From Patescibacteria group bacterium (GTDB taxonomy: Bacteria; Patescibacteriota; Minisyncoccia; Phycocordibacterales; CSBR16-119), in assembly GCA_052033715.1 (NCBI GenBank), contig JBPOJJ010000002.1:1676-65675 (forward strand): DNA of 64,000 bases, in the 5' to 3' direction. Position numbers and translations under genes: made by a program. The notes under the pieces were generated by a model. The model searched no databases and was not told the origin of the DNA. It saw only the letters and a program-made list of their open reading frames with translations. Positions 9,880-58,001 of the stretch are shown here, in pieces (position 1 is the first letter of the stretch; the number at the start of each line of letters is the position of its first letter).

Positions 9880-10850
9880 TAACTACCGAACTATACAAAG
9901 GACAGGGTCTAGGTAACCAATTGTGGTGCTACGTAGTCACTCGAGCTATTGCCAAAAAACGCGGCTTTGATTTTGGTATTGAGTCTCCTCAGAATTTCAA
10001 AGGAGGAGATTTTATGCAACTAGATTTCGGTCAAAAACCGATTCGTATTTTAAATACTTATCATGAACGTTCGATGTTCCACCCCATTAACAATGCTGAC
10101 ATCACCTTGCACGACCCGGGGCTATTGCGTGTTTCCGATAACACAAAAATCCTCGGAGTCATGCAAGACGAAAAATATATTTCTGAATACAAAGACGAAA
10201 TCCGAGAATGGCTTATAATAAAAGACATCGACGTAAGCGATTGCATTGATGAAAATACCTGCGTACTGAATTTTCGCGGGGGCGAATATGCCAGACACCC
10301 AGAAATATACCTTCAGAAAAAATATTGGATTGATGCGATAAACAACATGAAAGAATTATTTCCGGGATTAAAATTTATCGTTATAACCGATGACGTGAAA
10401 GCTGCTCGAGAAATGTTGCCCGAAATATCTGCATATCACTTTGATATCGCCAAAGACTACACTGTAATCTCAAAAGCTAATTATTTAATCCTTTCCAACT
10501 CCAGCTTCGCCTGGTTTCCAGCCTGGTTATCAAAAAATTTAAAATATTGCATCGCGCCAAAATACTGGGGTAGGCACAACATTTCCGACGGTTACTGGAG
10601 CGCAGGCTATAATATAACCAGTGGATGGATGTACCAAGACCGCGATGGAAAATTGCAAAATTACGATTCCTGTCTACAAGAGTTTGAAACATATATAAAA
10701 AATCACTCAAACTACTTTGCCGAAAACAACGCGACGAGTCGACAACGCCCCAGAAACAACATCGTGTTATTTTTAAAGAAAAAAATTGGAGAAATATTGC
10801 CGGAGAGGACAAAAAATTTAATTTTCAAAACCTTTCGAATAAAAAAATAA
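9876..10850 (+). CDS. GT11-family alpha-1,2-fucosyltransferase
   Basis: 324 aa; GT11 motif I variant GQGLGNQLWCY and motif LILSNSSFAWFPAWL (cf. canonical SNSSFSWWAAWL). Confidence 0.7.
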   Translation: MITTELYKGQGLGNQLWCYVVTRAIAKKRGFDFGIESPQNFKGGDFMQLDFGQKPIRILNTYHERSMFHPINNADITLHDPGLLRVSDNTKILGVMQDEKYISEYKDEIREWLIIKDIDVSDCIDENTCVLNFRGGEYARHPEIYLQKKYWIDAINNMKELFPGLKFIVITDDVKAAREMLPEISAYHFDIAKDYTVISKANYLILSNSSFAWFPAWLSKNLKYCIAPKYWGRHNISDGYWSAGYNITSGWMYQDRDGKLQNYDSCLQEFETYIKNHSNYFAENNATSRQRPRNNIVLFLKKKIGEILPERTKNLIFKTFRIKK

Positions 10851-10871
10851 ATTATTAATTAAAATAAAAAT

Positions 10872-11879
10872 ATGGAAACAAAAAAAATATTAATAACGGG
10901 TGTAGCGGGACTATTTGGTTCACATCTGTCTACCTATCTACTGGATAAAGGATACGAAGTGATCGGAATTGACAATTTATCTGGTGGCTACGATGATTTT
11001 GTAGACGAACGATTAAAAAATAGTGCTCGTTTTTACGCCACAGATTTGCTTGATACGGCAACTATAGAAAAAATATTCTCTGAACATAAGCCCGATTTCG
11101 TATATCATTTTGCGGCGTATGCGGCTGAAGGACTTTCTCCGTTTATTCGAAATTTTAATTACAAAAATAATCTGATTTGCTCCGTGAATATTATTAATGC
11201 CTGTATAAAACACAATGTAAAAAAAATCATATTTACTTCTTCTATGGCGGTTTATGGACACGGCGTACCGCCTTTCAAAGAAGATCAAACGCCCACCCCA
11301 GCTGACCCATACGGAATTGCAAAATACGCAGTAGAGATGGATATTATTCAAGCGTGTGAGCAATTCAAACTTAATTATACAATTGTGCGCCCGCACAATG
11401 TTATCGGCACCAGACAAAATATTTGGGATAAATATAGAAATGTAATTGGTATATGGATTCGCGAATCACTTCAAAATGGAACGCTTCTCGTCTTTGGAGA
11501 TGGTGAACAAACGAGAGCCTTTTCGGATATTAAATATTACATGGAGCCTTTTGAAAAATTATTATACAAAGCAGATGGCGAAATTCTAAATCTGGGGGCC
11601 GACAAAGAATTCAAATTAAATATGATTGCAGCGCTGGTAAAAAAGGTAGCAAACGAACTTGGATATAATCCTGATATCAAGCACGCCGAACAACGCAACG
11701 AAGTAAAAGATGCTTACTGTGATCATGCTAAAGCAAAGGACTTACTCGGATTCAGTGATGCAACCGACATAGAACAAACGGTTCGAGAAATGTTCGTTTG
11801 GGCAAAAGCTCAGCCGGCTAGAGAAGTGAAAAGAATGGATTACGAAATTGAAAAAAATATATATAGTTTTTGGAAATAG
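10872..11879 (+). CDS. NAD-dependent epimerase/dehydratase (SDR superfamily, UDP-sugar 4-epimerase/decarboxylase-like)
   Basis: 335 aa; GxxGxxG (TGVAGLFGS), catalytic YxxxK (YGIAKYA). Confidence 0.85.
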   Translation: METKKILITGVAGLFGSHLSTYLLDKGYEVIGIDNLSGGYDDFVDERLKNSARFYATDLLDTATIEKIFSEHKPDFVYHFAAYAAEGLSPFIRNFNYKNNLICSVNIINACIKHNVKKIIFTSSMAVYGHGVPPFKEDQTPTPADPYGIAKYAVEMDIIQACEQFKLNYTIVRPHNVIGTRQNIWDKYRNVIGIWIRESLQNGTLLVFGDGEQTRAFSDIKYYMEPFEKLLYKADGEILNLGADKEFKLNMIAALVKKVANELGYNPDIKHAEQRNEVKDAYCDHAKAKDLLGFSDATDIEQTVREMFVWAKAQPAREVKRMDYEIEKNIYSFWK

Positions 11880-11898
11880 TGAGAATAAGCGAATAGAC

Positions 11899-12834
11899 GA
11901 TATGAAATTAGGAAAAATACTACACAAAATAAGAACGCTACTCCGTAGTTTTAAATACGACCTACTTTCGACGACGCAGGAAAAACTAAGCGAAGAAGAC
12001 ATCTCGACTATCCGAGAGTATCGGAAAAATATAAAGATTTATGATATCTTTACTTACAATGGCGAAGCAGATATCCTGGAAATCCACTTGAACGTCCTTT
12101 ACGAACATGTCGATATGTTCGTAATAATCGAAGCCCCGACAACATTTTCCGGCCAGAAAAAACCTCTCTACTTCGAAGAACAAAAAGAGCGATTCAAACC
12201 ATTTTTAGATAAAATAAAATATTTTGTAATCGATGATTATCCAAATGATCCGGAAATCTGCGCGTTGGCCGATATAAGCATATCGGTACCCAAAGGCGGT
12301 CCAGAACACTGGCGTCGAGAGTTCTACCAGAAAGAAAGTATAAAAAAAGCCCTTACAGAACTGTGCGATGTCGACATTTGCTTCGTCGGCGACGTCGATG
12401 AAATATGGGACCCAAAAACTATTGTTGATTACCGAAAGGACGACATCTTTAAGCTTGAACAGACTGTTTACACTTATTTTCTAAACAATCGCTCAAACCA
12501 ATATTGGGCGGGCACAATTGTCACCAAGTACAAAAACGTAAAAAATTCCTGCTTAAATAACTTACGAAACAAAACAAATACAAAATATACTTATGTGAAG
12601 AACGGTGGCTGGCATTTTACCAATATGGGCGGCATAGAAGAAATACGAAGAAAACTAAATGATTCGTACACCGAAGAAAGTTACAATTCGAAAGAAATCC
12701 AAGACAATCTGACCAAACGATTCGGAAAAAAAGACTATGTGGGCAGGAGTCATAAATATAAGATCGATGAAAGCGCTCTCCCCGACTACGTGATCAGGCA
12801 AAGACAGGCTTACAAAAATCTATTCAAAGAATAG
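11899..12834 (+). CDS. GT17-like glycosyltransferase (beta-1,4-GlcNAc-transferase III-like fold)
   Basis: ~311 aa from the ATG at 11899; the track ORF begins at 11848 with a non-ATG codon inside the upstream gene. Matches the GT17 pattern FTYNGEADILEIHLNVLYEHVDMFVIIEAPTTFSGQKKP. Confidence 0.5.
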   Translation, partial: DMKLGKILHKIRTLLRSFKYDLLSTTQEKLSEEDISTIREYRKNIKIYDIFTYNGEADILEIHLNVLYEHVDMFVIIEAPTTFSGQKKPLYFEEQKERFKPFLDKIKYFVIDDYPNDPEICALADISISVPKGGPEHWRREFYQKESIKKALTELCDVDICFVGDVDEIWDPKTIVDYRKDDIFKLEQTVYTYFLNNRSNQYWAGTIVTKYKNVKNSCLNNLRNKTNTKYTYVKNGGWHFTNMGGIEEIRRKLNDSYTEESYNSKEIQDNLTKRFGKKDYVGRSHKYKIDESALPDYVIRQRQAYKNLFKE

Positions 12835-16651: not shown

Positions 16652-18580
16652 TTAAATTTTATTACCGAAAAGCTCCTCGAACCTATTTAGATAATTTTGT
16701 GATTGCACAACTTTCGGATTTATATCGTGGGCCTTTTTATAATATTCATATGATTTTTTGAAATTATCATCATGAAGATAGACTTGGCCATAGGTCCAGT
16801 AAACTCGAGGATTATTTGGTGCCAGCTTTTCTGCCCGCTCAAGATATTTCAAAACACGATCAACTTTGTCTTTGGTTATTTCATCTGTGATTGTCATTTC
16901 GAAATTCAAAAGTTCTGCAGATACTAGCCACAGTCTGGCATGATTTCCCGCAACACCTTCCAAAGAATCCACAGTATTCAAGAAGTCATGTATTTCTTTT
17001 TGGGTAGTTTTGATCATTTCTGGGCTATTCATTATTTTCGAAGCATGTTCACGATAAGCCGACATCATAACAGAAGCTAAGTATCCAACATCTCCGCCAT
17101 TGCCCATTGGAGAGATTTGTATAAGCTCAGCGAATTTTACTTGTCTGTCAACGCCAACACTAAGCGAACTGATTATCGCCTTCGATTTTTTGAGCGGGTT
17201 ATGAACGAAGGAAATCCAACAAAAGACAAAGGCGGCGAGGCATAGGGCAACTATTGCAAAATTTTTATTATCCGACGCTCCTTTGCTGCTAGTTGAGCCA
17301 GAAGATCCAAAAGCAAGTCCGACAAACAGACCGAACATCACAAATAGCAACGTCCACGTATGGACCATATCAAACAATATTAACGCCTGAAGAATGTAGG
17401 CCACAAACATCCCTATAAACAGCCCGAGAGTAATTCGATCAAATATCTTCTTGTGATAAAGATAAATCGGTAGAAATAAAAGTGAAATCAAGAATACTAA
17501 ATATAATATTCCGCCGACAAATCCTCCAATAACGAATGCCTCTAGAACGGAATTGTGTGGTTTATCTGTCCAAATTTCTGGCACGCCCGGTATTTCTAGA
17601 AGTTTTGGATTAAAATGTTTGGTAAATGCTACGACGTAATTCTCAGACCCCCAACCAAAAACCGGTCGATCTTTTATACCATCAACGGCAGCCTCCCAAA
17701 AGATAAAACGACTATTTGTTGCGGCTTCAGCGAAGGCGTTATGAACTTTTGAATCCGGGCGTAACAGAGCTGCGCCGATTACTACTCCACCCGCAAGAAT
17801 TAGTCCAAGTAAAGAAAAGCCCAAAATTTTAATCGTCTGTCTGACGTGGGTTGCAAGATAAATTCCAAATGCCACAATGGCTCCTATCAAAATACCTCCT
17901 ATGGAACCACGGGCCATGACAGCCACCGGCGAAACAAGAATGGCAATAAGACCAATAGTTATCCAAATTTTGCTTTTACGGTCAGATTTTCCAAGTAGAA
18001 ATACTGCGCCCAGAAAAAGAGAGAAGATCAGGTAAGCTCCAGAAAAAGATGAGTTACCAAATAAATCTCCGCTATTTGGTCCATCAAAAAGGAACAATGA
18101 AGGAATGTTTATAAGGTGCTCGTTAATAAACGTTGAAAGCGCAATAATAATTCCTGAATAAAAGACCGTTCGACAAATCTTGTACAGAAAATCCTTCCCG
18201 TGAAATCGGACCAAAGAAGCAATCACGATACCAAAGACCAAACAGTGATAAAGGAATATTAGTCCGGTGGCTCGCTCAAATGTTCCCCAGAAAGCAATGT
18301 TCGGTACCGGCGCAAAAATGGCACTAACGGTAAGCGAGACCATTAAAAGCATTGGTAACAGAAGCACGAGAACTTGTTTTCTAGACAATCGATACCGATC
18401 GTCTGTAATAGCCAGATAGGCCCAGAGGAAAAATGTAAGCTCGGCAAAGCCCATGAAGAAGAAGCTTTTGGATGAAATAAAAGGATAGAGCCGACCAGAA
18501 AACAAAGCCAAGGGTGTAGCAAAAATAGTAAGAAGCGTCAAAAACGACAGGGCTTTCTCGGCAAACGTAGCATCTTTCAT
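16652..18580 (-). CDS. Wzy/O-antigen ligase-like polymerase with C-terminal TPR-repeat periplasmic domain
   Basis: 642 aa; ~12 TM helices then soluble TPR-like C-terminus (YYKKAHDINPK...); last gene of glycan locus. Confidence 0.6.
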   Translation of the reverse strand: MKDATFAEKALSFLTLLTIFATPLALFSGRLYPFISSKSFFFMGFAELTFFLWAYLAITDDRYRLSRKQVLVLLLPMLLMVSLTVSAIFAPVPNIAFWGTFERATGLIFLYHCLVFGIVIASLVRFHGKDFLYKICRTVFYSGIIIALSTFINEHLINIPSLFLFDGPNSGDLFGNSSFSGAYLIFSLFLGAVFLLGKSDRKSKIWITIGLIAILVSPVAVMARGSIGGILIGAIVAFGIYLATHVRQTIKILGFSLLGLILAGGVVIGAALLRPDSKVHNAFAEAATNSRFIFWEAAVDGIKDRPVFGWGSENYVVAFTKHFNPKLLEIPGVPEIWTDKPHNSVLEAFVIGGFVGGILYLVFLISLLFLPIYLYHKKIFDRITLGLFIGMFVAYILQALILFDMVHTWTLLFVMFGLFVGLAFGSSGSTSSKGASDNKNFAIVALCLAAFVFCWISFVHNPLKKSKAIISSLSVGVDRQVKFAELIQISPMGNGGDVGYLASVMMSAYREHASKIMNSPEMIKTTQKEIHDFLNTVDSLEGVAGNHARLWLVSAELLNFEMTITDEITKDKVDRVLKYLERAEKLAPNNPRVYWTYGQVYLHDDNFKKSYEYYKKAHDINPKVVQSQNYLNRFEELFGNKI

Positions 18581-18651
18581 ACCCCAATTCTACACAAAAA
18601 TACCTCACGAACAAGGCCCTCGAAGGAGGGCCATGCTCTAAAAAGAACTCG

Positions 18652-20433
18652 TCAATCTACCACAACCAGTTTGGTTCTCTGACAAGAACCGCTATCAGAA
18701 GTAGTGGAAATGACGTAACTGCCTACCGGCAAGTCGATTATGAGCTCACGGAAACCGTGAACTATCGGACGTCCAAAGACATCAAAAATATCCAGCATGG
18801 TGGGGGCTCGAGCCCTCAAAACCTCACCACGACGGATTGGATTTGGAAAAAGATTGAAGTCTCCCAAACCCAGAGACACTGAGACAACCTTGAACGTTAC
18901 CGATTCACCCGCGACATTGGTCTCACGGAGACGATAATAATTCACTTGTCCCATCTTCGGACCATTGTCAACGACACCATAGACTGCTCCAGTGCCAGGA
19001 GAGCCCAATGGTAAAATTTCAGCGACCGTTTCCCACTCTTCGCCATCAAAAGATCGCTCAACACCAAAACGATCGACGGCTTCTTCGGATCCGGTCGCCC
19101 ACGATAAACGAACGCGTCCCACTCCTGCTGCCTCACCAACAAAGTACAGAAGTTCTATCGGCAATATCCCTGGCTCACAGTCTTCCAACAAAAGTGGGTA
19201 ACCGTTAAAGCTCGGCGTCGGCGAAGGAGTAATCGTCAGATCGACCCAAACGGACGGTGGTTGATCTGTCTGTATCAATCCCGTGTACGGCCCGGAATTA
19301 ATTACAATCGGCGGCGGAGCCTCGCACGCAGTACCAGTAAAATTACCGGTTACAGGATCAACCGAAGCTAACACCACTCCGCGAACGGAACCATTTAGGC
19401 TCGGATACCTCATGTAAGGAACGCGTAGGGTTCCATCCACAAAAGGCTCACAGGCCGGGAACGAATTTGCGGAACTCAGAGCTCGACTCCAAGCCGGATC
19501 AAGAGATGCTGTGTCGAGCTTCATAACCAAGACTCTTTGGGAACCAGCCGACATCCTGTTGCAAGCTAAGTACAGATGGCCATCATCGTAGACCAGCTTG
19601 CCGTTTTCGAGAGCGCCTCCCGGTGTAGTGTACGACCGAGATTTTACGGTGTCGAAATTATGGTCGAGGACGATTAGTCCCATCGCTCCGGGCCTGGTGG
19701 CGGCAAGAACGTATCGCGATCCAGGAATCTCAACGACGCTTGTGAGCATCTCTCTGACGTCTCCTGGGATTCCGTAAGTTCTGTGGAAAAGCTGGTTGCC
19801 GTCTGGGTCCAATATCCGAAGCTCGAGGTCGCCGGCAAGTCCACCGTTCGTGATTGGATCATTAAAGGAAAAAAGACTATCGTTCCGAGGAAGGATTCTA
19901 GCGTGATCTACCGCACCAAGCGACACAAGTGGCTTCTTCGCCCAAATCAAAACACCAGCCGGAGAAAGTTTGGTGAGGAATTGATCATTCGCCAAAAACC
20001 TTTGGCCGGTTACAAATATGTACCCATTGATTGATTCTGTCACGTGTGTTGGGGAAGCGGCTATGTCGAGAAGGCCTGAATTCAGCCAAACAACATCGCC
20101 CGTCTGATTGATGCGCGAAATAAAAGCTTCCCCCGACATTTCGCCGACAACAAACAGGTCCCCGGCAGCTGCCAGCGCCATAGATGACATGATTGAAACA
20201 GTAAAATACCTGCTCCAGGACATCTGCTGTCCTGAAAAGCGGGCAACCATTCCAAAGTCGCTTCCTACGGGCAGAATTCCGCAGGCGAAGTATTCGTTTG
20301 GCGACCCGTTAATCACACTCGAGAGATTGAGCTGTTGGATAGTACTGTTCGGATCTATCAACAACTGCGTCTGACCCGCGAACTGTAAAGGAGCGATCCC
20401 TAGCAGGATCACGAGAATCAAGTTCTTCTTCAT
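18652..20433 (-). CDS. secreted protein (beta-propeller-like) with FN3-like domain and T9SS-type C-terminal sorting domain
   Basis: 593 aa; signal peptide MKKNLILVILLGIAPLQFAGQ; FxVERSxDG...YYRL segment then C-terminal FNLFPNPIRRGEV...GSYVISTTS...KLVVVD resembling Por/T9SS CTD; GC-rich relative to neighbours. Confidence 0.55.
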   Translation of the reverse strand: MKKNLILVILLGIAPLQFAGQTQLLIDPNSTIQQLNLSSVINGSPNEYFACGILPVGSDFGMVARFSGQQMSWSRYFTVSIMSSMALAAAGDLFVVGEMSGEAFISRINQTGDVVWLNSGLLDIAASPTHVTESINGYIFVTGQRFLANDQFLTKLSPAGVLIWAKKPLVSLGAVDHARILPRNDSLFSFNDPITNGGLAGDLELRILDPDGNQLFHRTYGIPGDVREMLTSVVEIPGSRYVLAATRPGAMGLIVLDHNFDTVKSRSYTTPGGALENGKLVYDDGHLYLACNRMSAGSQRVLVMKLDTASLDPAWSRALSSANSFPACEPFVDGTLRVPYMRYPSLNGSVRGVVLASVDPVTGNFTGTACEAPPPIVINSGPYTGLIQTDQPPSVWVDLTITPSPTPSFNGYPLLLEDCEPGILPIELLYFVGEAAGVGRVRLSWATGSEEAVDRFGVERSFDGEEWETVAEILPLGSPGTGAVYGVVDNGPKMGQVNYYRLRETNVAGESVTFKVVSVSLGLGDFNLFPNPIRRGEVLRARAPTMLDIFDVFGRPIVHGFRELIIDLPVGSYVISTTSDSGSCQRTKLVVVD

Positions 20434-20470: not shown

Positions 20471-20502
20471 AAAACACAAAAACCCCTTTCGGGGTTTTTG
20501 TG
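20471..20502 (-). terminator. rho-independent terminator (AAAACCCCTTTCGGGGTTTT, flanked by A/T tracts; bidirectional-looking)
   Basis: perfect GC stem, tetraloop, T-tract on minus strand downstream of 20531..22429. Confidence 0.6.
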
Positions 20503-20530
20503 TTAGTTACTTTCGCTAAATGCTGTGCAC

Positions 20531-22429
20531 TTAGTTCAATGTAACGTTGCGTCCTGTCTTCAACATATCTGTCAAAGCTGTGTAGCTTAGAGTGTTGGCA
20601 GATCGAGTGGTATCAGACGTTGTCGCTGTACCAAACAGGATTGCTGTTCCCTTCATTCCTGAAAGGATTGGGCTTCCGCCATTACCCTTGGCAACGATTG
20701 CCTGGATATCGACGTACATAGTATCTCCTTCATTTACTGTGTAGTACTCGTTGTCAGCAGCATCGTTAGTTACTGTGTAAGTACCAGATGGAGTAAATGT
20801 GTAAGAAGAGATAGTTACTGAAGCAGCACCTCCAGCATCAGCAGCGATAGTAAAGAATTCTTTCGCAGCTGTTGATTCATCATCACCGTTTAGGTAGAGA
20901 GTTCCACCTTCAGCAACAACCTTGACTTTCATAGTCGCAGTCGCTGATGTAGGAGCTGATGAACCGTTGTCGTTAGCAACGACAGAAGATGATACTACTG
21001 TGATTTTAGGGAATGTAACGAAGAAGATTTGATTCTTTCCGTTAGCAGCACCTGTAACGTTAGTAACATCGTCACCGTTTTCATCTTCGACATCACCAGC
21101 AGTCATTAGGTTAGCGACGTTTGTAGATGTGATAGATGCTGATAGATAGTCTCCTTCAGCAAATGTTCCACCTGTGTCGTTAAGGTCAACAACGATTTCG
21201 AAATCAGTGTCTCCTTCTGAGAGATCAAAGTCTGCATCAGAGAAAGTACATGTTCCAGAATCGCAGTCTGAAGAGTTGATAGAATCAACTTCATCTCCGT
21301 CAACAACCAAAGTGAATGTCTTAGCAACGCCAGAGACAGTACTTGATTTACCGACAGTAATTTCAACGTCCTGAACATTCATGTCACCACCTGTTACTTC
21401 GAACTCACCTTTTAGCAAGGTAACGTTGTTAGTATCGTTAGTGTCATCAACTGCGACAACCTGAGACTCAGGATTGTCAGAAGCTGTAGAGATGTTCAAT
21501 TCTAGGTCATTTGCAGTTTCAAATGATGCAAATGAGAATGTTCGAACAGCTAGAGTAGGATCTTCTGAGATCAAACCGCCCTGTCCGTCCATCCATCGAA
21601 CTGAAGTAACATCAAGTGTCCAAGTATCACCGATATCTGGAGTGTCGATGTTCTCCTGTCCTGAGATAGCAACGTAGAAGTTAGCTTTTTCGCCAGCTTC
21701 AACGACAGCTGATCCTGTTAGAGAAACAGTCTGAGCGTATCCGTTGTCATCATCAAAGTCTTCAGCGTCAATTGAAGCAACCTTCTCGCTTCCAAACCAT
21801 ACTGTTACTTCATCAGCATACTTGTGGAAATCGTGGTTAGCTGTTCCCTGAGCGAAATCAAGCTTGATAGCTTTGACTCCAAGATCAGAGTTGTCATCAG
21901 CTTCGATTGAGAAACCGAGAACCTTTACATTGTTCTGTCCTTCTCCAACCTCTTCATTGTTTGAAGGTGATGATAGAAGTTTGTACTCATCAACTGTTCC
22001 AGCTCCTCCAGAAACTGTTGTAGGTCCTGTTGGAGTTGTAGGTGTTGTTGTTGAACATCCAGCGTTGTGGATAGCAAGACCTGTCATAGCGCCGACGATA
22101 CCGTCAGCTGTTAGGCCTTTTGAAGCCTGGAAAGCTTTGACTTTAGCTTCAGTCATAGGACCAAAGTTTCCGTCAGTTCCAGCTCCAACAACTGCCTGCA
22201 TAGCAGACACCTGTGATCCTGTTGAACCTCTCTTTAGAGTAACAGTGTGGTTGTAGCAAGCTGTTGTGCTTGTTGAACCTGTCAACGCTGAAAGCTGTGC
22301 TTGCAATGAAGCAATCAAAGCCTGTAGCTCTTCCATAGTAGCAGCTTTTGCAACTGGAGCTTTTACTGCAAATGCAGCAACGGCAACCAATACAAACGCG
22401 GCCAAAGTTTTCTTAAAGTTTGTACTCAT
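20531..22429 (-). CDS. cell-surface protein with N-terminal signal peptide, peptidoglycan-binding (PG_binding_1-like) domain and long low-complexity T/S/D/N-rich region
   Basis: 632 aa; signal peptide; GSTGSQVSAMQAVVGAGTDGNFGPMTEAKVKAFQASKGLTADGIVG motif of PG-binding domain. Confidence 0.55.
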   Translation of the reverse strand: MSTNFKKTLAAFVLVAVAAFAVKAPVAKAATMEELQALIASLQAQLSALTGSTSTTACYNHTVTLKRGSTGSQVSAMQAVVGAGTDGNFGPMTEAKVKAFQASKGLTADGIVGAMTGLAIHNAGCSTTTPTTPTGPTTVSGGAGTVDEYKLLSSPSNNEEVGEGQNNVKVLGFSIEADDNSDLGVKAIKLDFAQGTANHDFHKYADEVTVWFGSEKVASIDAEDFDDDNGYAQTVSLTGSAVVEAGEKANFYVAISGQENIDTPDIGDTWTLDVTSVRWMDGQGGLISEDPTLAVRTFSFASFETANDLELNISTASDNPESQVVAVDDTNDTNNVTLLKGEFEVTGGDMNVQDVEITVGKSSTVSGVAKTFTLVVDGDEVDSINSSDCDSGTCTFSDADFDLSEGDTDFEIVVDLNDTGGTFAEGDYLSASITSTNVANLMTAGDVEDENGDDVTNVTGAANGKNQIFFVTFPKITVVSSSVVANDNGSSAPTSATATMKVKVVAEGGTLYLNGDDESTAAKEFFTIAADAGGAASVTISSYTFTPSGTYTVTNDAADNEYYTVNEGDTMYVDIQAIVAKGNGGSPILSGMKGTAILFGTATTSDTTRSANTLSYTALTDMLKTGRNVTLN

Positions 22430-28017: not shown

Positions 28018-28050
28018 AATCCCCACGTTTGACGCGGGGATTTATTGTCT
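28018..28050 (+). terminator. rho-independent terminator after recA (AAATCCCCACGTTTGACGCGGGGATTT)
   Basis: stem-loop + T-rich tail; could act bidirectionally for 28042..28587. Confidence 0.55.
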
Positions 28051-28587
28051 TACGATCATTTCAACTAATTTATCTACGAGTTTATCTGGATCATCTTCAA
28101 ACACGACCGGCTGATGACTTCTCGGATATCCTCCCAAGACTTTCTTTATAACCTCATCCTCTTCCCAGTCTCCTCGCAAAACTCCAACTGGTTTGCCGGA
28201 TTTAAGGGCGAGGTTAAACTCGTGTAACGAATCAAGCTTGCCACAACCAATGATAACAGCATCGGCCGAGCGCGCCAAGAAAATCCCCGCTCCCCCCTGC
28301 CCAAATCCCGTATAAACCACCAGGTCGGCATTATCATGATCGAGTCGATAAACCTCCTGGTGCTCTTCTTTACTTGCTGCAGGAGAGAAATATATGACGT
28401 TTCCCCCGGCTTCTTTCGCTCCCATGGCCGAGAACATTGGAAATCCATGGTGTGATCCGGTAACCAAAAAGTGTCCCTTTGAAGCGATGGCTTTACCCAA
28501 CTTTTTTGCTTTTTCCAAAGTCTCCAAACTCGCGCCAGAAGCATCAATCGCGCCAGCAATAGCAATTTTATGTCGCGATTTTTTCAT
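28042..28587 (-). CDS. LOG/SLOG-type Rossmann-fold protein (TIGR00725-like, lysine-decarboxylase-like family)
   Basis: 181 aa; KIAIAGAID...VVYTGFGQGGAG pattern typical of TIGR00725/LOG family. Confidence 0.5.
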   Translation of the reverse strand: MKKSRHKIAIAGAIDASGASLETLEKAKKLGKAIASKGHFLVTGSHHGFPMFSAMGAKEAGGNVIYFSPAASKEEHQEVYRLDHDNADLVVYTGFGQGGAGIFLARSADAVIIGCGKLDSLHEFNLALKSGKPVGVLRGDWEEDEVIKKVLGGYPRSHQPVVFEDDPDKLVDKLVEMIVRQ

Positions 28588-34314: not shown

Positions 34315-35487
34315 TCAGTCCATTCGATGGGCTGGATCTTCAACATCTTCTGGAATGAGGAGTTCGGGCCTCAAAGCCTCCGGGATGGTGGGCTTCCAAG
34401 ACAGCCTGCTACCTGCCATGAGCGGTGTGATGCCACCATAAGATGGTGGAATTTCCCAACCTTCTTCGCCCGCGTATTCAAGCTCGAACGTGTCATCGTT
34501 CGGCTCCATTCCGTAGATACGTGCACCGTTCGTGACAGTGAAAGCTTCGAATGCTGGATGGTCAAGCCTCATCATCTGGTCGAAAATATAGACCATCAAT
34601 GGCCCCATCACTGGCGAACTGAAAACGCCAGGGCATCCGCAACTGCAGAGCTTTGTCGGATCGAGGTGTGGCGCCGAATCGGGTCCAAGATGGAGCTTGT
34701 TGTATCCTAGTTCATCGGCACGAAGCACCGCTGTAAGCAATGCTTGTTGATCAACGAATGTCTGCACCGGTGGACGACAGTGATGAAATGGGTTGATGCC
34801 AGGATTTCCACCAGCGACCGGCCACTCCAAGACATCGTTACGTGTCATCCAAAGATGCTGCGGGGTAATGCCGCCTGTAATGCACTCCGGCATCTTCAAG
34901 ACCATTTCTAGTGTGCTCGCGGTAGAAATGTGCTCGATGTTGAAACGCACGCCCGGGAATTTCTCAACAAGTCCCAAGAATGCCTCTTCCATGAACACGC
35001 CTTCGCGTGCGTATGTATCGATCTTCTCGCCCGGCTGTTCGCCGTGCAAACAGATGATGAGCTCGCGAGATGCTGCTTTTTCGATCGCAGAGTACATTTC
35101 TTGGAATGAATTCCAAGCACTTCCCTTTTCGTTCGAATTGGTCACACCCTCGGGATAGATCTTGACCGAGCGACCACCGAGGCTTTGAAACGCGGCAAGC
35201 TCTAGTAGATGAGTGTCTTTCACCAGCTTCATCGCAACACTATGCCTCATCTGTGGTGCCCTTCTGTGAAGTTCGCGCCGGTAATTCTGGGAATCAGTCG
35301 CACTGAGAATTGGCGGAGCCGTATTCGGCATCCACACCTCGTGTTGCGCCCACCAAGCAGTGGTCGTTACGGCGGTATGGAAGCGTGGTACAGGCTTTTC
35401 GTTGCCAATCACGTTGCGAGCGTGCCCGTGGGTCTGGAAGAACTTACGGAATTTTCGGCGTTCGCCGATTTGCGGTCGTGTGTTCAT
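34315..35487 (-). CDS. pyrC: dihydroorotase (E. coli PyrC-type, class II)
   Basis: ~390 aa from internal ATG (MNTRPQ...). PyrC motifs WMPNTAPP, ITPQHLWMTRNDV, GPDSAPH, SCGCPGVF, FTVTNGARIYG. ATGA overlap with pyrD stop. GC-rich (~55%). Confidence 0.85.
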   Translation of the reverse strand: MNTRPQIGERRKFRKFFQTHGHARNVIGNEKPVPRFHTAVTTTAWWAQHEVWMPNTAPPILSATDSQNYRRELHRRAPQMRHSVAMKLVKDTHLLELAAFQSLGGRSVKIYPEGVTNSNEKGSAWNSFQEMYSAIEKAASRELIICLHGEQPGEKIDTYAREGVFMEEAFLGLVEKFPGVRFNIEHISTASTLEMVLKMPECITGGITPQHLWMTRNDVLEWPVAGGNPGINPFHHCRPPVQTFVDQQALLTAVLRADELGYNKLHLGPDSAPHLDPTKLCSCGCPGVFSSPVMGPLMVYIFDQMMRLDHPAFEAFTVTNGARIYGMEPNDDTFELEYAGEEGWEIPPSYGGITPLMAGSRLSWKPTIPEALRPELLIPEDVEDPAHRMD

Positions 35488-36446
35488 GCGAAGTTTGGGT
35501 GTTGGTTGATGGTTTTGATGAGTTCTTTCATGCGCCATGGACGCGTGATAGCAGCGGTACCGAGTGAAATGCCTTTGACGCATTTCAATTCAGCAAGCTG
35601 TTCAATATCCTGGACGGATGTAACTCCGCCCCCGGCAATGATCGGCTTTTTGAAGCCGCTATACTCAGCATGTTGAAGCCACTGCAGTGTCGTTCCGAAG
35701 ATTGGTTGTCCTGACAGCCCGCCGCCGCCATACTTTTTGAGAGGCGAGCCGTTTGGGAAATAGGTATGTACACCAGCTTCGGAAATGGCGCCGAATGGAA
35801 GAGTGTTGAAGCAAACAAGTCCAGCGCAAGCCGGATGTTCTTCGATCGCCTTGGCATCTTCAACGGACGTAAGCTGGTTGATCTTGACCAAGATCGGAAC
35901 ATCCAGGCTCGCAAGAACATCCAGAAGCGGCTTCGCAGCTTTTGCGGTCTTCGCTGTATCATGACCAGTATTAGGACAAGACACGTTCAGCTGTACCGCG
36001 AATTTCGTCATAAACCTGGTCTTGTTGACCAGATCTACGAATCCTCGCGCCTGAAATTCCTGCGCAATGGGATCGTCGCCGATCGCCATGAACGAGAGCA
36101 TGAACGGATCACGTCTACGCTGCCAGTGACCTTGTGCAATTAGGTGCGCAACTCCAGGTCCGCTAAGTCCAACCGAGTTCAGAACAAGGTTGTTAACGAA
36201 ATCGACGTGGACCGAATCCGGAAACATCTTCTTCAGGCCGATTTGATTCTCGGTCAATTCAGTATTCCCCTTGTTAGGATTGAATGTCGTCGTCTTGGCA
36301 CAGAACGTCATACCATCGAATGTAAATCCAGGCATGAGTTTGTAGAACGGATGATGGCGGTACTCGGTACCAGCATCACCCCCGAAGAAGCCTTGAACGC
36401 CAGAGGCGCCCACGGCAGGACTGAAGTGGATTCCTCCGATATTCAT
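35484..36446 (-). CDS. pyrD: dihydroorotate dehydrogenase family protein (class 1 DHOD/DHPD-like TIM barrel)
   Basis: 320 aa; NSVGLSGPG, LNVSCPNTGH, GGGGLSGQPI, IIAGGGVTSVQD motifs matching class-1 DHOD; GC-rich. Confidence 0.7.
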   Translation of the reverse strand: MNIGGIHFSPAVGASGVQGFFGGDAGTEYRHHPFYKLMPGFTFDGMTFCAKTTTFNPNKGNTELTENQIGLKKMFPDSVHVDFVNNLVLNSVGLSGPGVAHLIAQGHWQRRRDPFMLSFMAIGDDPIAQEFQARGFVDLVNKTRFMTKFAVQLNVSCPNTGHDTAKTAKAAKPLLDVLASLDVPILVKINQLTSVEDAKAIEEHPACAGLVCFNTLPFGAISEAGVHTYFPNGSPLKKYGGGGLSGQPIFGTTLQWLQHAEYSGFKKPIIAGGGVTSVQDIEQLAELKCVKGISLGTAAITRPWRMKELIKTINQHPNFA

Positions 36447-42828: not shown

Positions 42829-44163
42829 CTATTTGAGGTTTTCAGTGAAATAAGTTGCGAGCTCAGAGATTTTTATTCTTTCCTGTAGGGCGGTGTCTCG
42901 GAAACGCACGGTGACAGATTCGTCATCGAGAGATTCGAAGTCAATGACGACACAAAAAGGTGTGCCGATCTCATCCTGCTTCTTGTAACGCTTGCCAATA
43001 TTTCCATTATCGTCCCAGACGACATTTCCAAAAACTTCTTTTAGCTCGGCAAAGACATTCTCGGCCTTGGAAACGAGTTCTGATTTATTCTTCAAAAGTG
43101 GAGAGACGCAAATTTTATAAGGCGCGATTTTTGGATGAAGAGCCAAGTATATTCTGATGTCGTCTCCCTCGCCCGATTCACGATAAGCCGATACTAGAAG
43201 CGCCAGAATTGTACGATCGAGTCCAAAGGATGGTTCAATGACATGTGGGGTCAAAACTTCTACACCCTCTTCACCCTGGAAACGATATTCAAGTTTTTCA
43301 CCAGAACTTTCGGAGTGTCGATCAAGATCGTAGCTGCCACGATAAGCAAGGCCGTAGAGTTCTTTCTGACCAAACGGATATTCGAATTCGAAATCAACAG
43401 TGCGTGATGAGTAATGGGCTCGATCGCCATCGGGAATTTCGATGTCGTGAACCTTGTTCATGTCGAGTCCGACTGATTCCATCCACTCAAGGATTTCATC
43501 TTTCCAATATTCAAAATGTTTGGACCATTCATCCGGACGGACGAAGTATTCTATTTCCATTTGTTCCATTTCACGCAAACGGAAGATAAAATCGCGTGGC
43601 GTGATCTCGTTTCGGAAAGCCTTGCCGACCTGAGCGATACCAAATGGAAGTTTCGGCTGCATCGAATCCATCACGTTCTTGAAGTTCACGAAAATTCCTT
43701 GAGCGGTTTCAGGACGCAGATACGATGTAGCCGCGGAATCTTCGGCCGCACCGACTTTTGTCTCGAGCATCATATTAAACTGACGAACTTCTCCAAATCC
43801 TCCACCACACGATGGGCACTTGTCGGAGTCTAGTTGATCGGCGCGAAATCTTTTGTTACATTTTTTGCATTCGACGAGAGGATCAGAGAAGTGATCGACG
43901 TGACCAGTCGCTTGCCAAACTTTTTGGTTCATGAGAATAGCCGCGTTTACCATATGCATATCACGGCGAGAGTGGACGAATTTACGTTTCCAGGATTCGA
44001 CGACGTTGTCGCGAAGAAGGGCACCCAATGGACCGTAGTCATAGGTTCCGGCCAATCCCCCGTAGATCTCGGACCCAGGAAAAACAAAACCGCGTCTTTT
44101 GCACAAAGACGTAATCTTTTGCATCAAGTCATCTTGCTTATTGGATGGTGTCATTCTCTGCAT
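42829..44163 (-). CDS. glyQS: glycyl-tRNA synthetase, alpha2 (eukaryote/archaeal/Gram-positive) type
   Basis: 444 aa; SLCKRRGFVFPGSEIYGG N-terminus, class II motifs; start may be an internal Met (44154 or 44124), which would reduce/remove the overlap with the next gene. Confidence 0.9.
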   Translation of the reverse strand: MQRMTPSNKQDDLMQKITSLCKRRGFVFPGSEIYGGLAGTYDYGPLGALLRDNVVESWKRKFVHSRRDMHMVNAAILMNQKVWQATGHVDHFSDPLVECKKCNKRFRADQLDSDKCPSCGGGFGEVRQFNMMLETKVGAAEDSAATSYLRPETAQGIFVNFKNVMDSMQPKLPFGIAQVGKAFRNEITPRDFIFRLREMEQMEIEYFVRPDEWSKHFEYWKDEILEWMESVGLDMNKVHDIEIPDGDRAHYSSRTVDFEFEYPFGQKELYGLAYRGSYDLDRHSESSGEKLEYRFQGEEGVEVLTPHVIEPSFGLDRTILALLVSAYRESGEGDDIRIYLALHPKIAPYKICVSPLLKNKSELVSKAENVFAELKEVFGNVVWDDNGNIGKRYKKQDEIGTPFCVVIDFESLDDESVTVRFRDTALQERIKISELATYFTENLK

Positions 44164-46036
44164 TATAATTACTATCGAGATTTAGTCTAGTCGTGATCGG
44201 TTGCATGTTTTTGGTGAGATCGGCATTGGCAAACGCATCCTTGGCCGTCAAGAAAATATTCGTCACAAGATTGACCACTGATCCTGTCTGCGAACTTGCT
44301 GGATTTAGTCTAACTTGGAAGTACAAAGTGGTCGGAGCCGCCGAGCCGCTCGAAGCTTCGATGTTTCCGGCATCCCAGATGACTTCGTGACTGGCCGGAT
44401 CATAAGTAACTTTGGCACTTTGCGGACTCCAATTATCCATCCATTCAACATAGAAAGGCAAAACTCCATGGACTTTGGTATTGGTTAAACGACTAGTACT
44501 ACCAGAAATGTTCCAAACAACCGTATAGGTCGTCGGAGATCCAGCTTTTGCGGGCAATCCCCCACTATTTGTAAATGGTCCCGAGTAATACAAAGCATTC
44601 CCAGTCACGCCACTTGAACTTGAGTACTTAACTTTTTTCCTTATGTAATCGTTAATAGTCTGGAAAGAATTACCAAGGGATGACTGACGTCCTCGGACAC
44701 TAACATTGATATTTATTTCTGGATTTTTTATATTTGTTCCATTCAAAGACACTGGTTTAAATTTAAAGTCTAGATCACCTCGTTTACCTGGATCGATATT
44801 GGCCAAGTCGGGTGTGGTCTGGCTATTCCAAACAATTGACTGATTGGTCGCGTCATAGAACCCTCCACTATTGAGCTGAACAGAGTTTGGATCAAAGGCG
44901 TTGCCCGAGAATTTCGCCGTGATTTCGACATCCGTCATTTTTGAATCCAAATTGTTTTCGTAATTTATTTCTGCTTGAGCATACTGACCGGAAAGCGCCG
45001 AAACTTCTGGAGCGGTGTTTCCATTGACCGCCAGCCTCAAGTCGAGAAACGGTTTGGCAATCGACAAGATGTAGTCTTGGGAATTAAACTGTGTGCCAAT
45101 TCTTTGTTCGTTTTCAAGATTGGCTGTTCCGGTCGTAATATTGAAAGCACGTTGTTCTCCAGGATCGGCGACCAAGACACCATGGATGGAAATCACTTTC
45201 TCAGCGCCTTTGGCCAAATCTCCCAATGCCCAAATGTTATCAGAAAAAGTTGGCTCTGGTGTAGCCTCTTTAAAATCAAAGCCTGGTGGATAATTCACAA
45301 CAATCATGACACCTTCCACAGACTTCTCGGTATTTAAACTCGCCGTTACATCAAACTTAAGATCTTGATTCGAATTGGCAACCGTCGGCCCGTCAACGAT
45401 AAGTGTAATTGGATTTGAAGAAATATTTACGACATAGGGTTTCTGCTTGATGAAAATGGCACTTGAGCCGTGCACACGATACTCGAGTGTAATGTTCACA
45501 TCTCTAGTTGTTCCCTGTGCGCCAAAAAGTGTTAGCGTTACAAGTTTTTCAACCATTCCACCGGCCGGGATTGTACCGACAGTCGTTCTATCGCTTTGGA
45601 TTGATTCCCCGCCACCCGAGCCTTTCTGATATTCCAAAATCAAGTCAGCGTATTCAAGCGCAACATTGTTTCTGTTTGAAAATTGGATCTTGAGCGGAAG
45701 TTCTTCGCCACCCGATACGAAAGCGTTACCTAAAATATTTATTTCGATATTGTCTGCCGAAACTGTATTTCGTCCACCAAAAAACATGACCGCACCGAAT
45801 CCCAAAGAAAGAATAAAAAATGCGATGGCTCCGAAAAAAAACTTTCGGAACATTGTGTTTTCGAGAACGTTTTTCCTTCTCTTTATCTGGGCAGGGGCTT
45901 CCTTTTTCCATTCCGAAGAAACAAGAGGTTCTTCTTGGTAAACTTCGCCACGCGGACGGAGATTTATGTCTTTGGTTTTTGGGCTATAGAGCTTCTCTTT
46001 GAGACGCTCTATATGGCTTTTTTTCTTCGGAGGCAT
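44138..46036 (-). CDS. large membrane-anchored extracytoplasmic protein (hypothetical; beta-sandwich repeat-like)
   Basis: 632 aa; basic N-terminus, single TM (FFFGAIAFFILSLGFGAVMFF), long N/S/T/G-rich ectodomain with repeat-like segments. Confidence 0.45.
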   Translation of the reverse strand: MPPKKKSHIERLKEKLYSPKTKDINLRPRGEVYQEEPLVSSEWKKEAPAQIKRRKNVLENTMFRKFFFGAIAFFILSLGFGAVMFFGGRNTVSADNIEINILGNAFVSGGEELPLKIQFSNRNNVALEYADLILEYQKGSGGGESIQSDRTTVGTIPAGGMVEKLVTLTLFGAQGTTRDVNITLEYRVHGSSAIFIKQKPYVVNISSNPITLIVDGPTVANSNQDLKFDVTASLNTEKSVEGVMIVVNYPPGFDFKEATPEPTFSDNIWALGDLAKGAEKVISIHGVLVADPGEQRAFNITTGTANLENEQRIGTQFNSQDYILSIAKPFLDLRLAVNGNTAPEVSALSGQYAQAEINYENNLDSKMTDVEITAKFSGNAFDPNSVQLNSGGFYDATNQSIVWNSQTTPDLANIDPGKRGDLDFKFKPVSLNGTNIKNPEININVSVRGRQSSLGNSFQTINDYIRKKVKYSSSSGVTGNALYYSGPFTNSGGLPAKAGSPTTYTVVWNISGSTSRLTNTKVHGVLPFYVEWMDNWSPQSAKVTYDPASHEVIWDAGNIEASSGSAAPTTLYFQVRLNPASSQTGSVVNLVTNIFLTAKDAFANADLTKNMQPITTRLNLDSNYNAENDTIQ

Positions 46037-57841: not shown

Positions 57842-57881
57842 GATTTTAAATTGTTAAGGCTAATGTTCTTATTTTACCACA

Positions 57882-57949: not shown

Positions 57950-57983
57950 CACAAAAAGAAAAAGGGGGCCGAAGCCCCCTTTC
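57950..57983 (-). terminator. rho-independent terminator after PNP gene with UUCG tetraloop (GGGGGC-TTCG-GCCCCC + TTTTCTTTTTGT on minus strand)
   Basis: GC stem, UUCG loop, T-tract. Confidence 0.6.
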
Positions 57984-58001
57984 GCAAAGCGAAACCAAAC
58001 G

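What the first reader, a model, noticed from the sequence alone, without database searches (positions are those of the whole stretch)
18652..20433. Secreted protein with Bacteroidota-style T9SS C-terminal sorting domain, GC-rich, next to a glycan locus
The protein has a signal peptide and a large N-terminal (propeller-like) region. It then has a segment LPIELLYFVGEAAGVGRVRLSWATGSEEAVDRFGVERSFDGEEWETV...YYRLRETNVAGES (the FxVERSxDG...YYRLxxxD pattern common upstream of T9SS CTDs). The C-terminus is FNLFPNPIRRGEVLRARAP...GSYVISTTSDSG...KLVVVD, resembling the Por-secretion C-terminal sorting domain (TIGR04183-like). The gene is ~52% GC versus ~36% for the adjacent glycosylation genes. No other T9SS component is seen in the window and the rpsF-ssb-rpsR arrangement is not Bacteroidota-like. 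This looks like a horizontally acquired cargo gene, a possible assembly chimera, or evidence that CTD-like domains are used by another export route.
Basis: partly seen in the sequence, partly recalled or inferred. Interest (0 to 1): 0.55.

Follow-up and report, generated by a model that had tools for sequence, protein, structure and literature searches.

The report
Bacteroidota-style secretion-tagged protein in Saccharibacteria
This is a real, fast-evolving exported protein of a Saccharibacteria (CPR) bacterium that keeps three hallmarks of Bacteroidota type IX secretion cargo, including the C-terminal sorting domain, although this single-membrane lineage is not known to have that secretion system.

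Summary
ORF 18652..20433 (-), 593 aa, is real. Its parts are a signal peptide, a beta-propeller (aa ~36-320), a Cys-containing linker, an FN3-fold domain (421-522) and a C-terminal beta-sandwich (523-593).

This copy of the tail scores below the curated cut-offs (TIGR04183 17.8 vs 23 bits). At family level the homology is clear. 12 of 18 homologous C-termini hit TIGR04183, and the family profile's only PDB matches at E<0.05 are T9SS CTDs such as RgpB.

It is not an assembly chimera. Orthologues sit in the same DeoR / PG_binding_1 / gene / Wzy_C / GT11 / GT2 context in more than five independent assemblies, one labelled Candidatus Saccharibacteria (RecA 95% identical).

About 25 distant relatives (24-33% identity) share the architecture. 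The six contexts inspected are not Bacteroidota-like; four are next to rpsL-rpsG. All 25 have Gln right after the predicted signal-peptide cleavage site (the Bacteroidetes "Q-rule"), against 1 of 12 neighbouring exported proteins.

The GC argument is weak: GC3 is 0.505 against 0.445±0.075 for the window.

Best reading: an anciently captured Bacteroidota-type cargo gene, now a hypervariable Sec-exported surface protein. Its FN3+CTD tail has been swapped for another cassette in sister strains. The tail's role without a T9SS is unknown.

The parts
18652..20433 (-). Complete gene (593 codons plus stop) for the exported propeller-FN3-CTD protein
   Evidence: ORF list. An identical protein is on a 190-kb NCBI contig, and orthologues are 76% and 44% identical over the full length.
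20374..20433 (-). Signal peptide, aa 1-20 (MKKNLILVILLGIAPLQFAG), with predicted SPase I cleavage before Gln21
   Evidence: Hydrophobicity scan and reading by eye. Q21 is an invariant column in the 25-sequence family alignment.
20371..20373 (-). Gln21, the predicted +1 residue of the mature protein (the 'Q-rule' position)
   Evidence: 25 of 25 family members have [A/G/S]|Q here, against 1 of 12 neighbouring exported proteins. The Q-rule is described as Bacteroidetes-specific in PMC5837995.
19474..20328 (-). Beta-propeller, aa ~36-320 (about 28 strands; SBBP / delta-60-like blades)
   Evidence: AF2 pLDDT 60-87. Foldseek best match CylK propeller 7ron, E=3.4e-9, with other propellers below it. 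Homologues hit TIGR02608 and NF047494 below their cut-offs.
19174..19473 (-). Linker region, aa 321-420, with conserved cysteines (C370 and C419 invariant in 25 sequences), ending in the conserved DCEPG junction
   Evidence: Alignments A1 and A2. The model has low confidence here. The C-terminal cassettes diverge directly after this junction.
18868..19173 (-). FN3-fold 'pre-CTD' domain, aa 421-522 (LPIELLYF...VERSFDG...YYRLRE)
18655..18867 (-). C-terminal beta-sandwich homologous to the T9SS type A sorting domain, aa 523-593 (FPNP..., FDVFGRPIV, GSYVI, KLVVVD)
   Evidence: TIGR04183 17.8 bits and PF18962 12.7 bits, both end to end but below cut-off. 12 of 18 family C-termini hit TIGR04183, best E=1.1e-7. 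The family profile hits the RgpB CTD and other T9SS CTDs in the PDB.
20473..20504 (-). Terminator-like hairpin (14-bp stem plus T run) between the upstream PG_binding_1 gene and this gene
   Evidence: Pattern scan and sequence. It suggests that the gene has its own transcription start.
18615..18632 (-). Terminator-like hairpin (GGCCCTCC-TTCG-AGGGCC) 20 nt after the stop codon
   Evidence: Pattern scan and sequence.
20531..22429 (-). Conserved upstream neighbour: 632-aa exported protein with a PG_binding_1 domain
   Evidence: Pfam PF01471, E=1.3e-10. It is syntenic in L001, L002, L004, L010 and L011.
16652..18580 (-). Conserved downstream neighbour: 642-aa Wzy_C (O-antigen ligase/polymerase-type) membrane protein with a C-terminal TPR, followed by GT11 and GT2 genes
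   Evidence: Pfam PF04932, E=1.4e-15, plus TPR. It is syntenic in L001-L004 and L010.

Best explanation
The gene encodes a Sec-exported, rapidly diversifying cell-surface or secreted binding protein of a Saccharibacteria (Patescibacteria/CPR) bacterium.

Ancestry (inferred). The gene family descends from a Bacteroidota-type type IX secretion (T9SS) cargo gene captured long ago. It still carries the whole cargo 'chassis': a short signal peptide cleaved before Gln, an SBBP/delta-60-type beta-propeller as the working head, an FN3 spacer and a type A C-terminal domain (CTD).

How it works in its present host. The host phylum is described as monoderm, and the T9SS is described only for the Fibrobacteres-Bacteroidetes-Chlorobi group. 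Crossing the cytoplasmic membrane by Sec therefore already puts the protein outside the cell, so the CTD cannot be acting as an outer-membrane translocation signal. The FN3+CTD tandem most likely survives as a stalk, anchoring or binding module at the cell surface. It may bind the wall or glycan made by the adjacent PG-binding and Wzy_C/glycosyltransferase genes. Sister strains have exchanged it for an unrelated ~230-aa cassette at the conserved DCEPG junction.

Shown here: the gene is real and vertically maintained; its domain architecture; homology of the tail to T9SS CTDs; the Q+1 signature; purifying selection; hypervariability; and cassette exchange.

Inferred: the direction and age of the transfer; surface localisation; the absence of a T9SS in the whole genome; and the present role of the tail.
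For: Real and native. The same locus order occurs in independent assemblies. Window proteins compared with L004, labelled 'uncultured Candidatus Saccharibacteria', give RecA 95%, FtsK 91% and the PG-binding protein 89% identity.

Family. phmmer of aa 1-426 against 1.8 billion representatives finds about 25 full-length relatives of 570-610 aa at 24-33% identity with the same architecture. Four of the six contexts inspected lie upstream of rpsL-rpsG (three with fusA called), with ComEC, L28 and an M50 peptidase upstream where the contig reaches that far (L005-L009, L012). Two lie next to PG_binding_1 proteins (L013, L014). L008 shares with the window the DHFR/DCD/ThyA/SHMT/DoxX gene cluster, with SHMT 88% and DHFR 70% identical.

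CTD homology. P0031 and P0032 pass the TIGR04183 cut-off. 12 of 18 C-termini hit TIGR04183. All PDB sequence hits of the family profile at E<0.05 are C-terminal domains of T9SS cargo: 5hfs, 7pq4, 5ag8, 5ag9, 8glk_D and 8glj_D are so named, while 7pzj and 5jvk are matched at their C-termini.

Fold. The C-terminal model has pLDDT 88 and shows FN3 plus a beta-sandwich. The N-terminal part is a propeller.

Q-rule. 25 of 25 family members have Gln at +1, against 1 of 12 neighbouring exported proteins. PMC5837995 describes the rule as Bacteroidetes-specific.

Selection. dN/dS against L011 is 0.10 for the propeller, 0.18 for FN3 and 0.31 for the CTD.

Hypervariability. Among the rpsL-adjacent orthologues this gene is 29-33% identical, while S7 is 76-87% and EF-G 90%. 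In L010 it is 41-45% identical while RecA is 89%.

Cassette swap. P0003 and P0005-P0008 share the head but carry a different tail. Tail type does not follow head similarity: P0001, P0002 and P0003 are 75-81% identical in the head yet carry both tail types.

No T9SS seen. No T9SS, outer-membrane or glutaminyl-cyclase family appears among the 46 window proteins scanned. Patescibacteria are described as monoderm (PMC11665869) and the T9SS as found in the FCB superphylum (PMC11205867).
Against: The window's own CTD scores below both curated cut-offs.

Only 64 kb of the genome was searched for T9SS genes.

The organism label comes from one related MAG (L004). The contigs carrying the distant relatives have no taxon label at all; the cluster look-ups returned no organism names.

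The direction of transfer rests on hallmarks, not on a phylogeny.

An invariant Gln at +1 and a retained CTD under purifying selection could mean that these features still do something specific here, which a 'mere stalk' reading does not explain.

Five family members lack the first third of the CTD, and sister strains lack the CTD altogether. Its importance therefore varies between lineages.
Confidence: 0.6

Rival explanations
1. The CTD is still a working sorting or attachment signal, read by a non-T9SS pathway of the monoderm cell. For example, it could be cleaved and the protein ligated to a cell-wall glycan, conceivably by the adjacent Wzy_C/TPR ligase-type protein.
For: The CTD motifs (PNP, GR.V, G.Y, K.VV) are retained across relatives of only 24-33% identity, and the CTD's dN/dS is 0.31. 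Gln at +1 is invariant. The window-type locus always sits beside a Wzy_C/TPR protein and a glycan gene cluster. In Bacteroidota, type A CTD cargo is cleaved and linked to anionic LPS (established knowledge).
Against: No PorU-like or other candidate processing enzyme was identified. The rpsL-adjacent relatives are not next to a Wzy_C gene. Sister strains replace the whole tail and five members truncate it. No other protein in the window or in the fetched loci carries the module, so there is no sign of a multi-cargo sorting system.
Confidence: 0.13
2. Recent horizontal import whose Bacteroidota features are vestigial and decaying. The tail would have no function in this host.
For: The gene's GC (50.8%) is above its neighbours'. 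The window's CTD has drifted below the model cut-offs. The C-terminal part evolves faster than the head: 64% against 81% identity to L011. The tail is lost or replaced in sister strains.
Against: GC3 is within 1 SD of the window's genes. Orthologues and deep relatives keep conserved positions in many assemblies. dN/dS is well below 1 in every domain. The CTD model folds confidently (pLDDT 88).
Confidence: 0.1
3. An ordinary T9SS cargo protein. The organism, or the bin, would in fact possess a T9SS and an outer membrane elsewhere in its genome.
For: The architecture is exactly that of type A cargo. Only 64 kb of the genome was examined.
Against: The close relative is labelled Saccharibacteria. 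The window has rpsF-ssb-rpsR and no T9SS or outer-membrane family in 46 proteins scanned. Patescibacteria are described as monoderm (PMC11665869). Neighbouring exported proteins do not follow the Q-rule.
Confidence: 0.03
4. Assembly chimera: a Bacteroidota fragment spliced into a CPR contig.
For: A step in GC at the gene borders.
Against: The same gene sits in the same slot in at least five independent assemblies from different samples and pipelines. The borders are ordinary intergenic regions with terminator-like hairpins.
Confidence: 0.01
5. Chance resemblance: a generic Ig-like beta-sandwich that is not homologous to T9SS CTDs.
Against: The only NCBIfam and Pfam models matched by the isolated tail are the T9SS CTD models, and both match end to end. 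12 of 18 relatives hit TIGR04183. The top PDB sequence hits are exclusively T9SS CTDs. The domain order FN3 then CTD matches Bacteroidota cargo in register.
Confidence: 0.03

Closest known systems
Bacteroidota T9SS type A cargo with an SBBP/delta-60 beta-propeller head. Examples are P0230 and P0233 (TIGR04183 34.9 and 27.2 bits) and the P0009 cluster, which includes Ginsengibacter MGN6539250.1, named 'T9SS type A sorting domain-containing protein'.
   Same: A short signal peptide ending ...A|Q, a propeller with SBBP/delta-60-like blades, and a C-terminal type A CTD. In the P0009/P0010 proteins the same FN3 pre-CTD domain also sits in register before the CTD.
   Different: The window's protein sits in a Saccharibacteria genome context with no T9SS genes in view. 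The full-length family (head plus Cys linker) was found only in contexts that do not look like Bacteroidota (six contexts inspected). Similarity of the head to the Bacteroidota proteins is only at blade level. The window's CTD is below the model cut-offs.
C-terminal domain of Porphyromonas gingivalis gingipain RgpB (PDB 5hfs, 5ag8, 5ag9, 7pq4), the reference T9SS type A CTD
   Same: It is the best PDB sequence match of the family profile (E=1.7e-4), aligned over the last ~57 residues including the GR.V and G.Y strands. An Ig-like domain followed by a CTD is also the arrangement in 5ag8.
   Different: RgpB's CTD is recognised by the T9SS, cleaved by PorU, and the protein is then linked to A-LPS (established knowledge). 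None of that machinery is evident here. Identity in the structural alignment is about 16%.
Bacteroidetes Q-rule substrates (PMC5837995, PMC10653852)
   Same: Gln lies immediately after the predicted signal peptidase I site in 25 of 25 family members.
   Different: In Bacteroidota the rule applies to most exported proteins and depends on a glutaminyl cyclase. Here it is confined to this family (1 of 12 neighbouring exported proteins), and no cyclase was seen in the window.
SBBP beta-propeller proteins (Pfam PF06739; Leptospira LipL53 family NF047494; CylK propeller, PDB 7ron)
   Same: The propeller fold, and weak blade-level sequence matches in homologues.
   Different: No curated cut-off is reached. 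There is no lipobox and no catalytic residues were identified. The ligand is unknown.

Membership tests
T9SS type A C-terminal sorting domain (TIGR04183 / PF18962) | This protein's score against the curated model reaches the curated cut-off | tested here: not met
   On the full protein no hit is reported. On the isolated 70 aa: TIGR04183 17.8 bits against a cut-off of 23 (E=0.0024, profile 1-71/72), and PF18962 12.7 bits against 27.
T9SS type A C-terminal sorting domain (TIGR04183 / PF18962) | Homology of the domain family to validated CTDs, tested at family level | tested here: met
   P0031 (23.9 bits) and P0032 (24.0 bits) pass the cut-off. 12 of 18 aligned C-termini hit TIGR04183 at E<=0.01, best 1.1e-7. 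The profile of alignment A3 hits the RgpB CTD and other T9SS CTDs as its only PDB matches at E<0.05.
T9SS type A C-terminal sorting domain (TIGR04183 / PF18962) | A beta-sandwich of about 70-80 aa at the extreme C-terminus, on a protein that has an N-terminal Sec signal peptide | tested here: met
   The domain spans aa 523-593 and ends at the stop codon. The model has pLDDT 82-93 and is all-beta. The signal peptide was judged by hydrophobicity and cleavage motif.
T9SS cargo (functional membership) | T9SS machinery (PorV, PorU, SprA/Sov, PorK-N/GldK-N) encoded in the same genome | tested here: inconclusive
   None among the 46 window proteins scanned against Pfam, and none among the genes called in the related loci. 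The rest of the genome was not available.
T9SS cargo (functional membership) | A diderm host with an outer membrane to cross | not testable with these tools
   The literature describes Patescibacteria as monoderm (PMC11665869). The host assignment rests on 90-95% identical RecA and FtsK in a MAG labelled Candidatus Saccharibacteria.
T9SS cargo (functional membership) | CTD removal and attachment of the protein to anionic LPS, or its release | not testable with these tools
   This needs proteomics or biochemistry.
Bacteroidetes Q-rule signal peptidase I substrates | Gln at position +1 after the signal peptide | tested here: met
   Q21 is an invariant column. 25 of 25 family N-termini end [A/G/S]|Q.
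Bacteroidetes Q-rule signal peptidase I substrates | A glutaminyl cyclase in the genome, and the rule applying to most exported proteins | tested here: not met
   Only 1 of 12 neighbouring exported proteins has Gln at +1. No cyclase family was found in the window. The whole genome was not searched.
Fibronectin type III fold | A seven-stranded beta-sandwich that superposes on FNIII domains | tested here: met
SBBP / delta-60 repeat beta-propeller | Propeller fold together with repeat-model matches | tested here: inconclusive
   The fold is a propeller. Repeat models are hit only by homologues and below their cut-offs: TIGR02608 up to 33 bits against 76.5, NF047494 up to 29.5 bits against 400. 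The window's protein itself has only a 12.6-bit match to another propeller model.

The most novel reading that the evidence does not exclude
The type A CTD, and perhaps the +1 Gln, are still functional signals in a bacterium with one membrane and no T9SS. On this reading, Saccharibacteria would use the CTD for a T9SS-independent sorting step, such as cleavage and covalent attachment of the propeller protein to a cell-surface glycan made by the adjacent Wzy_C/glycosyltransferase locus. That would be the first use of this sorting domain outside type IX secretion. It would also point to past gene flow from Bacteroidota into CPR epibionts.
Probability: 0.12. Interest if true: 0.85.

Novelty: new variant of a known kind. 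Interest (0 to 1): 0.55.

Why it matters
T9SS C-terminal domains are treated as a marker of type IX secretion, and proteins are named automatically on that basis. Here the full cargo architecture is maintained under purifying selection in a lineage described as monoderm and lacking a T9SS. So the domain alone does not prove T9SS-dependent secretion.

The finding also gives a concrete, testable case of old gene flow from Bacteroidota into Saccharibacteria.

Finally, it identifies a hypervariable, cassette-swapping surface protein family next to cell-wall and glycan genes. Such proteins are candidates for host attachment or for phage or immune evasion in epibiotic CPR bacteria, where few surface proteins have been characterised.

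My literature searches found no paper that links T9SS CTDs with Saccharibacteria or CPR.

Tried and rejected
- A homologue search with the C-terminal 173 aa returned nothing, not even the protein itself. The cause may be technical (the query reference included the stop codon). I drew no inference from it.
- The profile search with alignment A2 recovered only 25 proteins and none of the distant family members, so it added no taxonomy.
- Three cluster look-ups gave no organism names for the family or for ribosomal proteins, RecA and EF-G of the related contigs. The taxonomy of the distant relatives therefore rests on synteny and on L008's similarity to the window.
- The afdb50 fold library was not available.
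- GC as evidence of recent transfer: rejected, because GC3 is within 1 SD of the window's genes.
- Lack of a Shine-Dalgarno site as a Bacteroidota trait: rejected, because only 2 of 51 window genes have one.
- Other carriers of the FN3 or CTD module in the window or the loci: none were found with family HMMs.
- The alternative C-terminal cassette (P0003 type) has no Pfam, NCBIfam or PDB match.
- The fold search cannot discriminate a CTD from generic Ig/FN3 tandems, so I rely on the sequence profiles.
Full report
**Observation**

- It opens with a classic short signal peptide, MKKNLILVILLGIAPLQFAG|Q. This is the most hydrophobic N-terminus among the window's ORFs.
- An AlphaFold2 model built on eight orthologues gives about 28 beta-strands over aa 36-320 with pLDDT 60-87. 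Its best PDB match is the CylK beta-propeller (E=3.4e-9), with other propellers below it.

**Is the tail a T9SS CTD?**

On the whole protein, neither Pfam nor NCBIfam reports a CTD. The isolated 70-aa tail matches the two T9SS CTD models and no other model. Both matches run end to end but fall below the cut-offs: TIGR04183 17.8 bits against 23, and PF18962 12.7 bits against 27. So this copy fails the curated membership test.

The family does not fail it:
- Two distant homologues pass the cut-off (P0031 23.9 bits, P0032 24.0 bits).
- 12 of 18 aligned C-termini hit TIGR04183 at E<=0.01, the best at 1.1e-7.
- A profile of that alignment, searched against all PDB sequences, finds at E<0.05 only C-terminal domains of T9SS cargo. 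These are the RgpB CTD (5hfs, 7pq4, 5ag8, 5ag9), 7pzj, 8glk_D, 5jvk and 8glj_D, the last named 'Por secretion system C-terminal sorting domain-containing protein'.
- The FN3 domain and the start of the tail align in register, at 32% identity, with the pre-CTD domain and 'FPNP' start of proteins P0009/P0010. Their cluster includes a Ginsengibacter protein named as T9SS type A cargo.

Structure comparison alone cannot settle the question, because the fold is a generic Ig/FN3 tandem. The RgpB IgSF-CTD structure appears only at rank 37.

**Not a chimera, and who owns the gene**

The orthologue lies in the same slot, DeoR-HTH / PG_binding_1 protein / this gene / Wzy_C-TPR / GT11 / GT2. This holds in JGI, Logan and NCBI assemblies from different samples (L001-L004, L010, L011).

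L004 is titled 'uncultured Candidatus Saccharibacteria bacterium'. Its RecA, FtsK and PG-binding proteins are 95%, 91% and 89% identical to the window's.

The window also has rpsF-ssb-rpsR, several aminoacyl-tRNA synthetases and a glycan locus. No T9SS, outer-membrane or glutaminyl-cyclase family appears in the 46 proteins scanned.

Patescibacteria are described as monoderm (PMC11665869). The T9SS is described as a system of the Fibrobacteres-Bacteroidetes-Chlorobi group (PMC11205867).

The gene borders are ordinary intergenic regions with terminator-like hairpins.

**A family, not a one-off**

phmmer of the head (aa 1-426) against 1.8 billion representative proteins finds 338 hits. About 25 of them are full-length relatives of 570-610 aa at 24-33% identity with the same head, linker, FN3 and CTD order.

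I inspected six of their genomic contexts:
- Four sit directly upstream of rpsL-rpsG, three of them with fusA called. ComEC, L28 and an M50 peptidase lie upstream where the contig reaches that far, and two large unannotated exported proteins lie just before the gene (L005-L009, L012).
- Two sit next to PG_binding_1 proteins (L013, L014).
- None looks like a Bacteroidota context.

L008 shares with the window's right end the DHFR/DCD/ThyA/SHMT/DoxX gene cluster, with SHMT 88% and DHFR 70% identical. These contigs therefore probably come from relatives of the window's organism. No taxon label could be obtained for them.

**A third Bacteroidota hallmark**

In the 25-sequence alignment, Gln21 is one of only 13 invariant columns. 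Every family member's signal peptide ends [A/G/S]|Q.

Exposure of Gln at +1 by signal peptidase I is the 'Bacteroidetes Q-rule', reported as specific to that phylum (PMC5837995). Only 1 of 12 neighbouring exported proteins in the same genomes has Gln there; the typical pattern is A-x-A|A or A-x-A|T.

Together with the FN3 pre-CTD domain and the CTD, this points to a Bacteroidota-type cargo gene as the ancestor of the whole family, not just of its tail. That direction is an inference; I built no tree.

**Age and selection**

The gene's GC is 50.8%, against a window gene mean of 43.6±4.2%. Five other genes are as high or higher. Its GC3 of 0.505 lies within 1 SD of the window (0.445±0.075).

Nei-Gojobori dN/dS against the L011 orthologue is 0.10 for the propeller, 0.18 for FN3 and 0.31 for the CTD. 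dS is partly saturated. All domains are therefore under purifying selection, the tail least so.

The protein is nonetheless the fastest-evolving gene of its neighbourhood:
- Its head is 72-81% identical where most flanking proteins are 81-95% (Wzy_C, at 74%, is comparably divergent).
- It is 41-45% identical in L010, where RecA is 89%.
- It is 29-33% identical among the rpsL-adjacent orthologues, whose S7 is 76-87% and EF-G 90% identical.

**Cassette exchange**

Five orthologues at the same locus (P0003, P0005-P0008; also L004) share the head up to the invariant DCEPG junction. Beyond it they carry an unrelated tail of about 230 aa with repeated DVNMDG...NDRD motifs. That tail has no Pfam, NCBIfam or PDB match.

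Tail type does not follow head similarity. P0001, P0002 and P0003 are 75-81% identical in the head yet carry both tail types. P0004, which has the CTD tail, is closest to P0006, which has the alternative tail. The tail has therefore been exchanged more than once.

Five distant members also lack the first third of the CTD.

**Mechanism**

Shown here: an exported propeller protein with conserved extracytoplasmic cysteines, an FN3 spacer and a CTD-homologous end domain. It is native to a Saccharibacteria lineage, and it is hypervariable and modular.

Inferred: after Sec export in a one-membrane cell the protein is already outside. The CTD therefore cannot serve as an outer-membrane passage signal. 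It most likely acts, together with FN3, as a stalk or anchoring/binding module for a surface-exposed propeller that binds an unknown ligand.

The alternative is that the CTD is read by a different sorting or attachment pathway, perhaps linked to the adjacent Wzy_C ligase-type protein. This cannot be excluded. It is disfavoured because the tail is dispensable in sister strains, and because no other protein in the sequence available carries the module.

**Novelty**

Searches of the paper library found nothing that links T9SS CTDs to Saccharibacteria, Patescibacteria or other monoderms.

I rate this a new variant of a known kind. The cargo architecture is familiar; what is new is that it is maintained in a lineage that should lack the cognate machinery.

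Noticed in passing
window 48392..51781 (-): A 1129-aa class I tRNA synthetase (tRNA-synt_1 plus Anticodon_1, IleRS-like) carries a complete histidine phosphatase domain (His_Phos_1, E=2.6e-37) inserted at aa 499-689, inside the catalytic domain.
   Followed up: no
window, all genes; e.g. upstream of 28042..28587, 44138..46036, 46063..46647, 53892..54425: Only 2 of 51 genes have a GGAG/GAGG/AGGA motif at -20..-4. Many have a TAnAAT-like box 6-12 nt before the ATG, which suggests widespread leaderless or Shine-Dalgarno-independent initiation.
   Followed up: partly
L001 10001..11977 (C-terminal ~235 aa); also P0005-P0008 and L004: An alternative C-terminal cassette replaces FN3+CTD after the DCEPG junction. 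It is about 230 aa with two DVNMDG...Y.G..NDRD..L repeats (reminiscent by eye of Ca-binding/dockerin repeats). It has no Pfam, NCBIfam or PDB match. Among its carriers it is better conserved (57-67%) than the propeller head (48-58%).
   Followed up: partly
L006 5187..9864; L007 5395..9874; L008 344..1822; L012 179..4553: Two large exported proteins (about 1000 aa and about 500 aa, mostly without Pfam hits) always precede the rpsL-adjacent family gene. They are equally hypervariable (33-48% identity where S7 is 76-87%). Together the three genes form a variable surface-protein island beside the rpsL-rpsG-fusA operon.
   Followed up: partly
window 57476..63455, compared with L008 8706..13702: The window's right end carries the same DoxX/SHMT/ThyA/DCD/DHFR gene cluster that lies about 5 kb from the rpsL-adjacent family gene in L008. 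The window's genome may therefore hold a second paralogue just beyond position 64000.
   Followed up: no
window 55861..57408 (+) and 34315..36446 (-): These are the highest-GC genes of the window: a DUF4407 protein (GC 0.554, GC3 0.68), and a 422-aa protein with no Pfam hit next to a DHO_dh-like gene (GC 0.51-0.53). They are more anomalous in GC3 than the gene under study.
   Followed up: no
L004 9952..12129: The tblastn match to the family protein starts at 10001, which is out of frame with the long ORF 9952..12129. This may be a frameshift or an assembly error in that MAG's copy.
   Followed up: no
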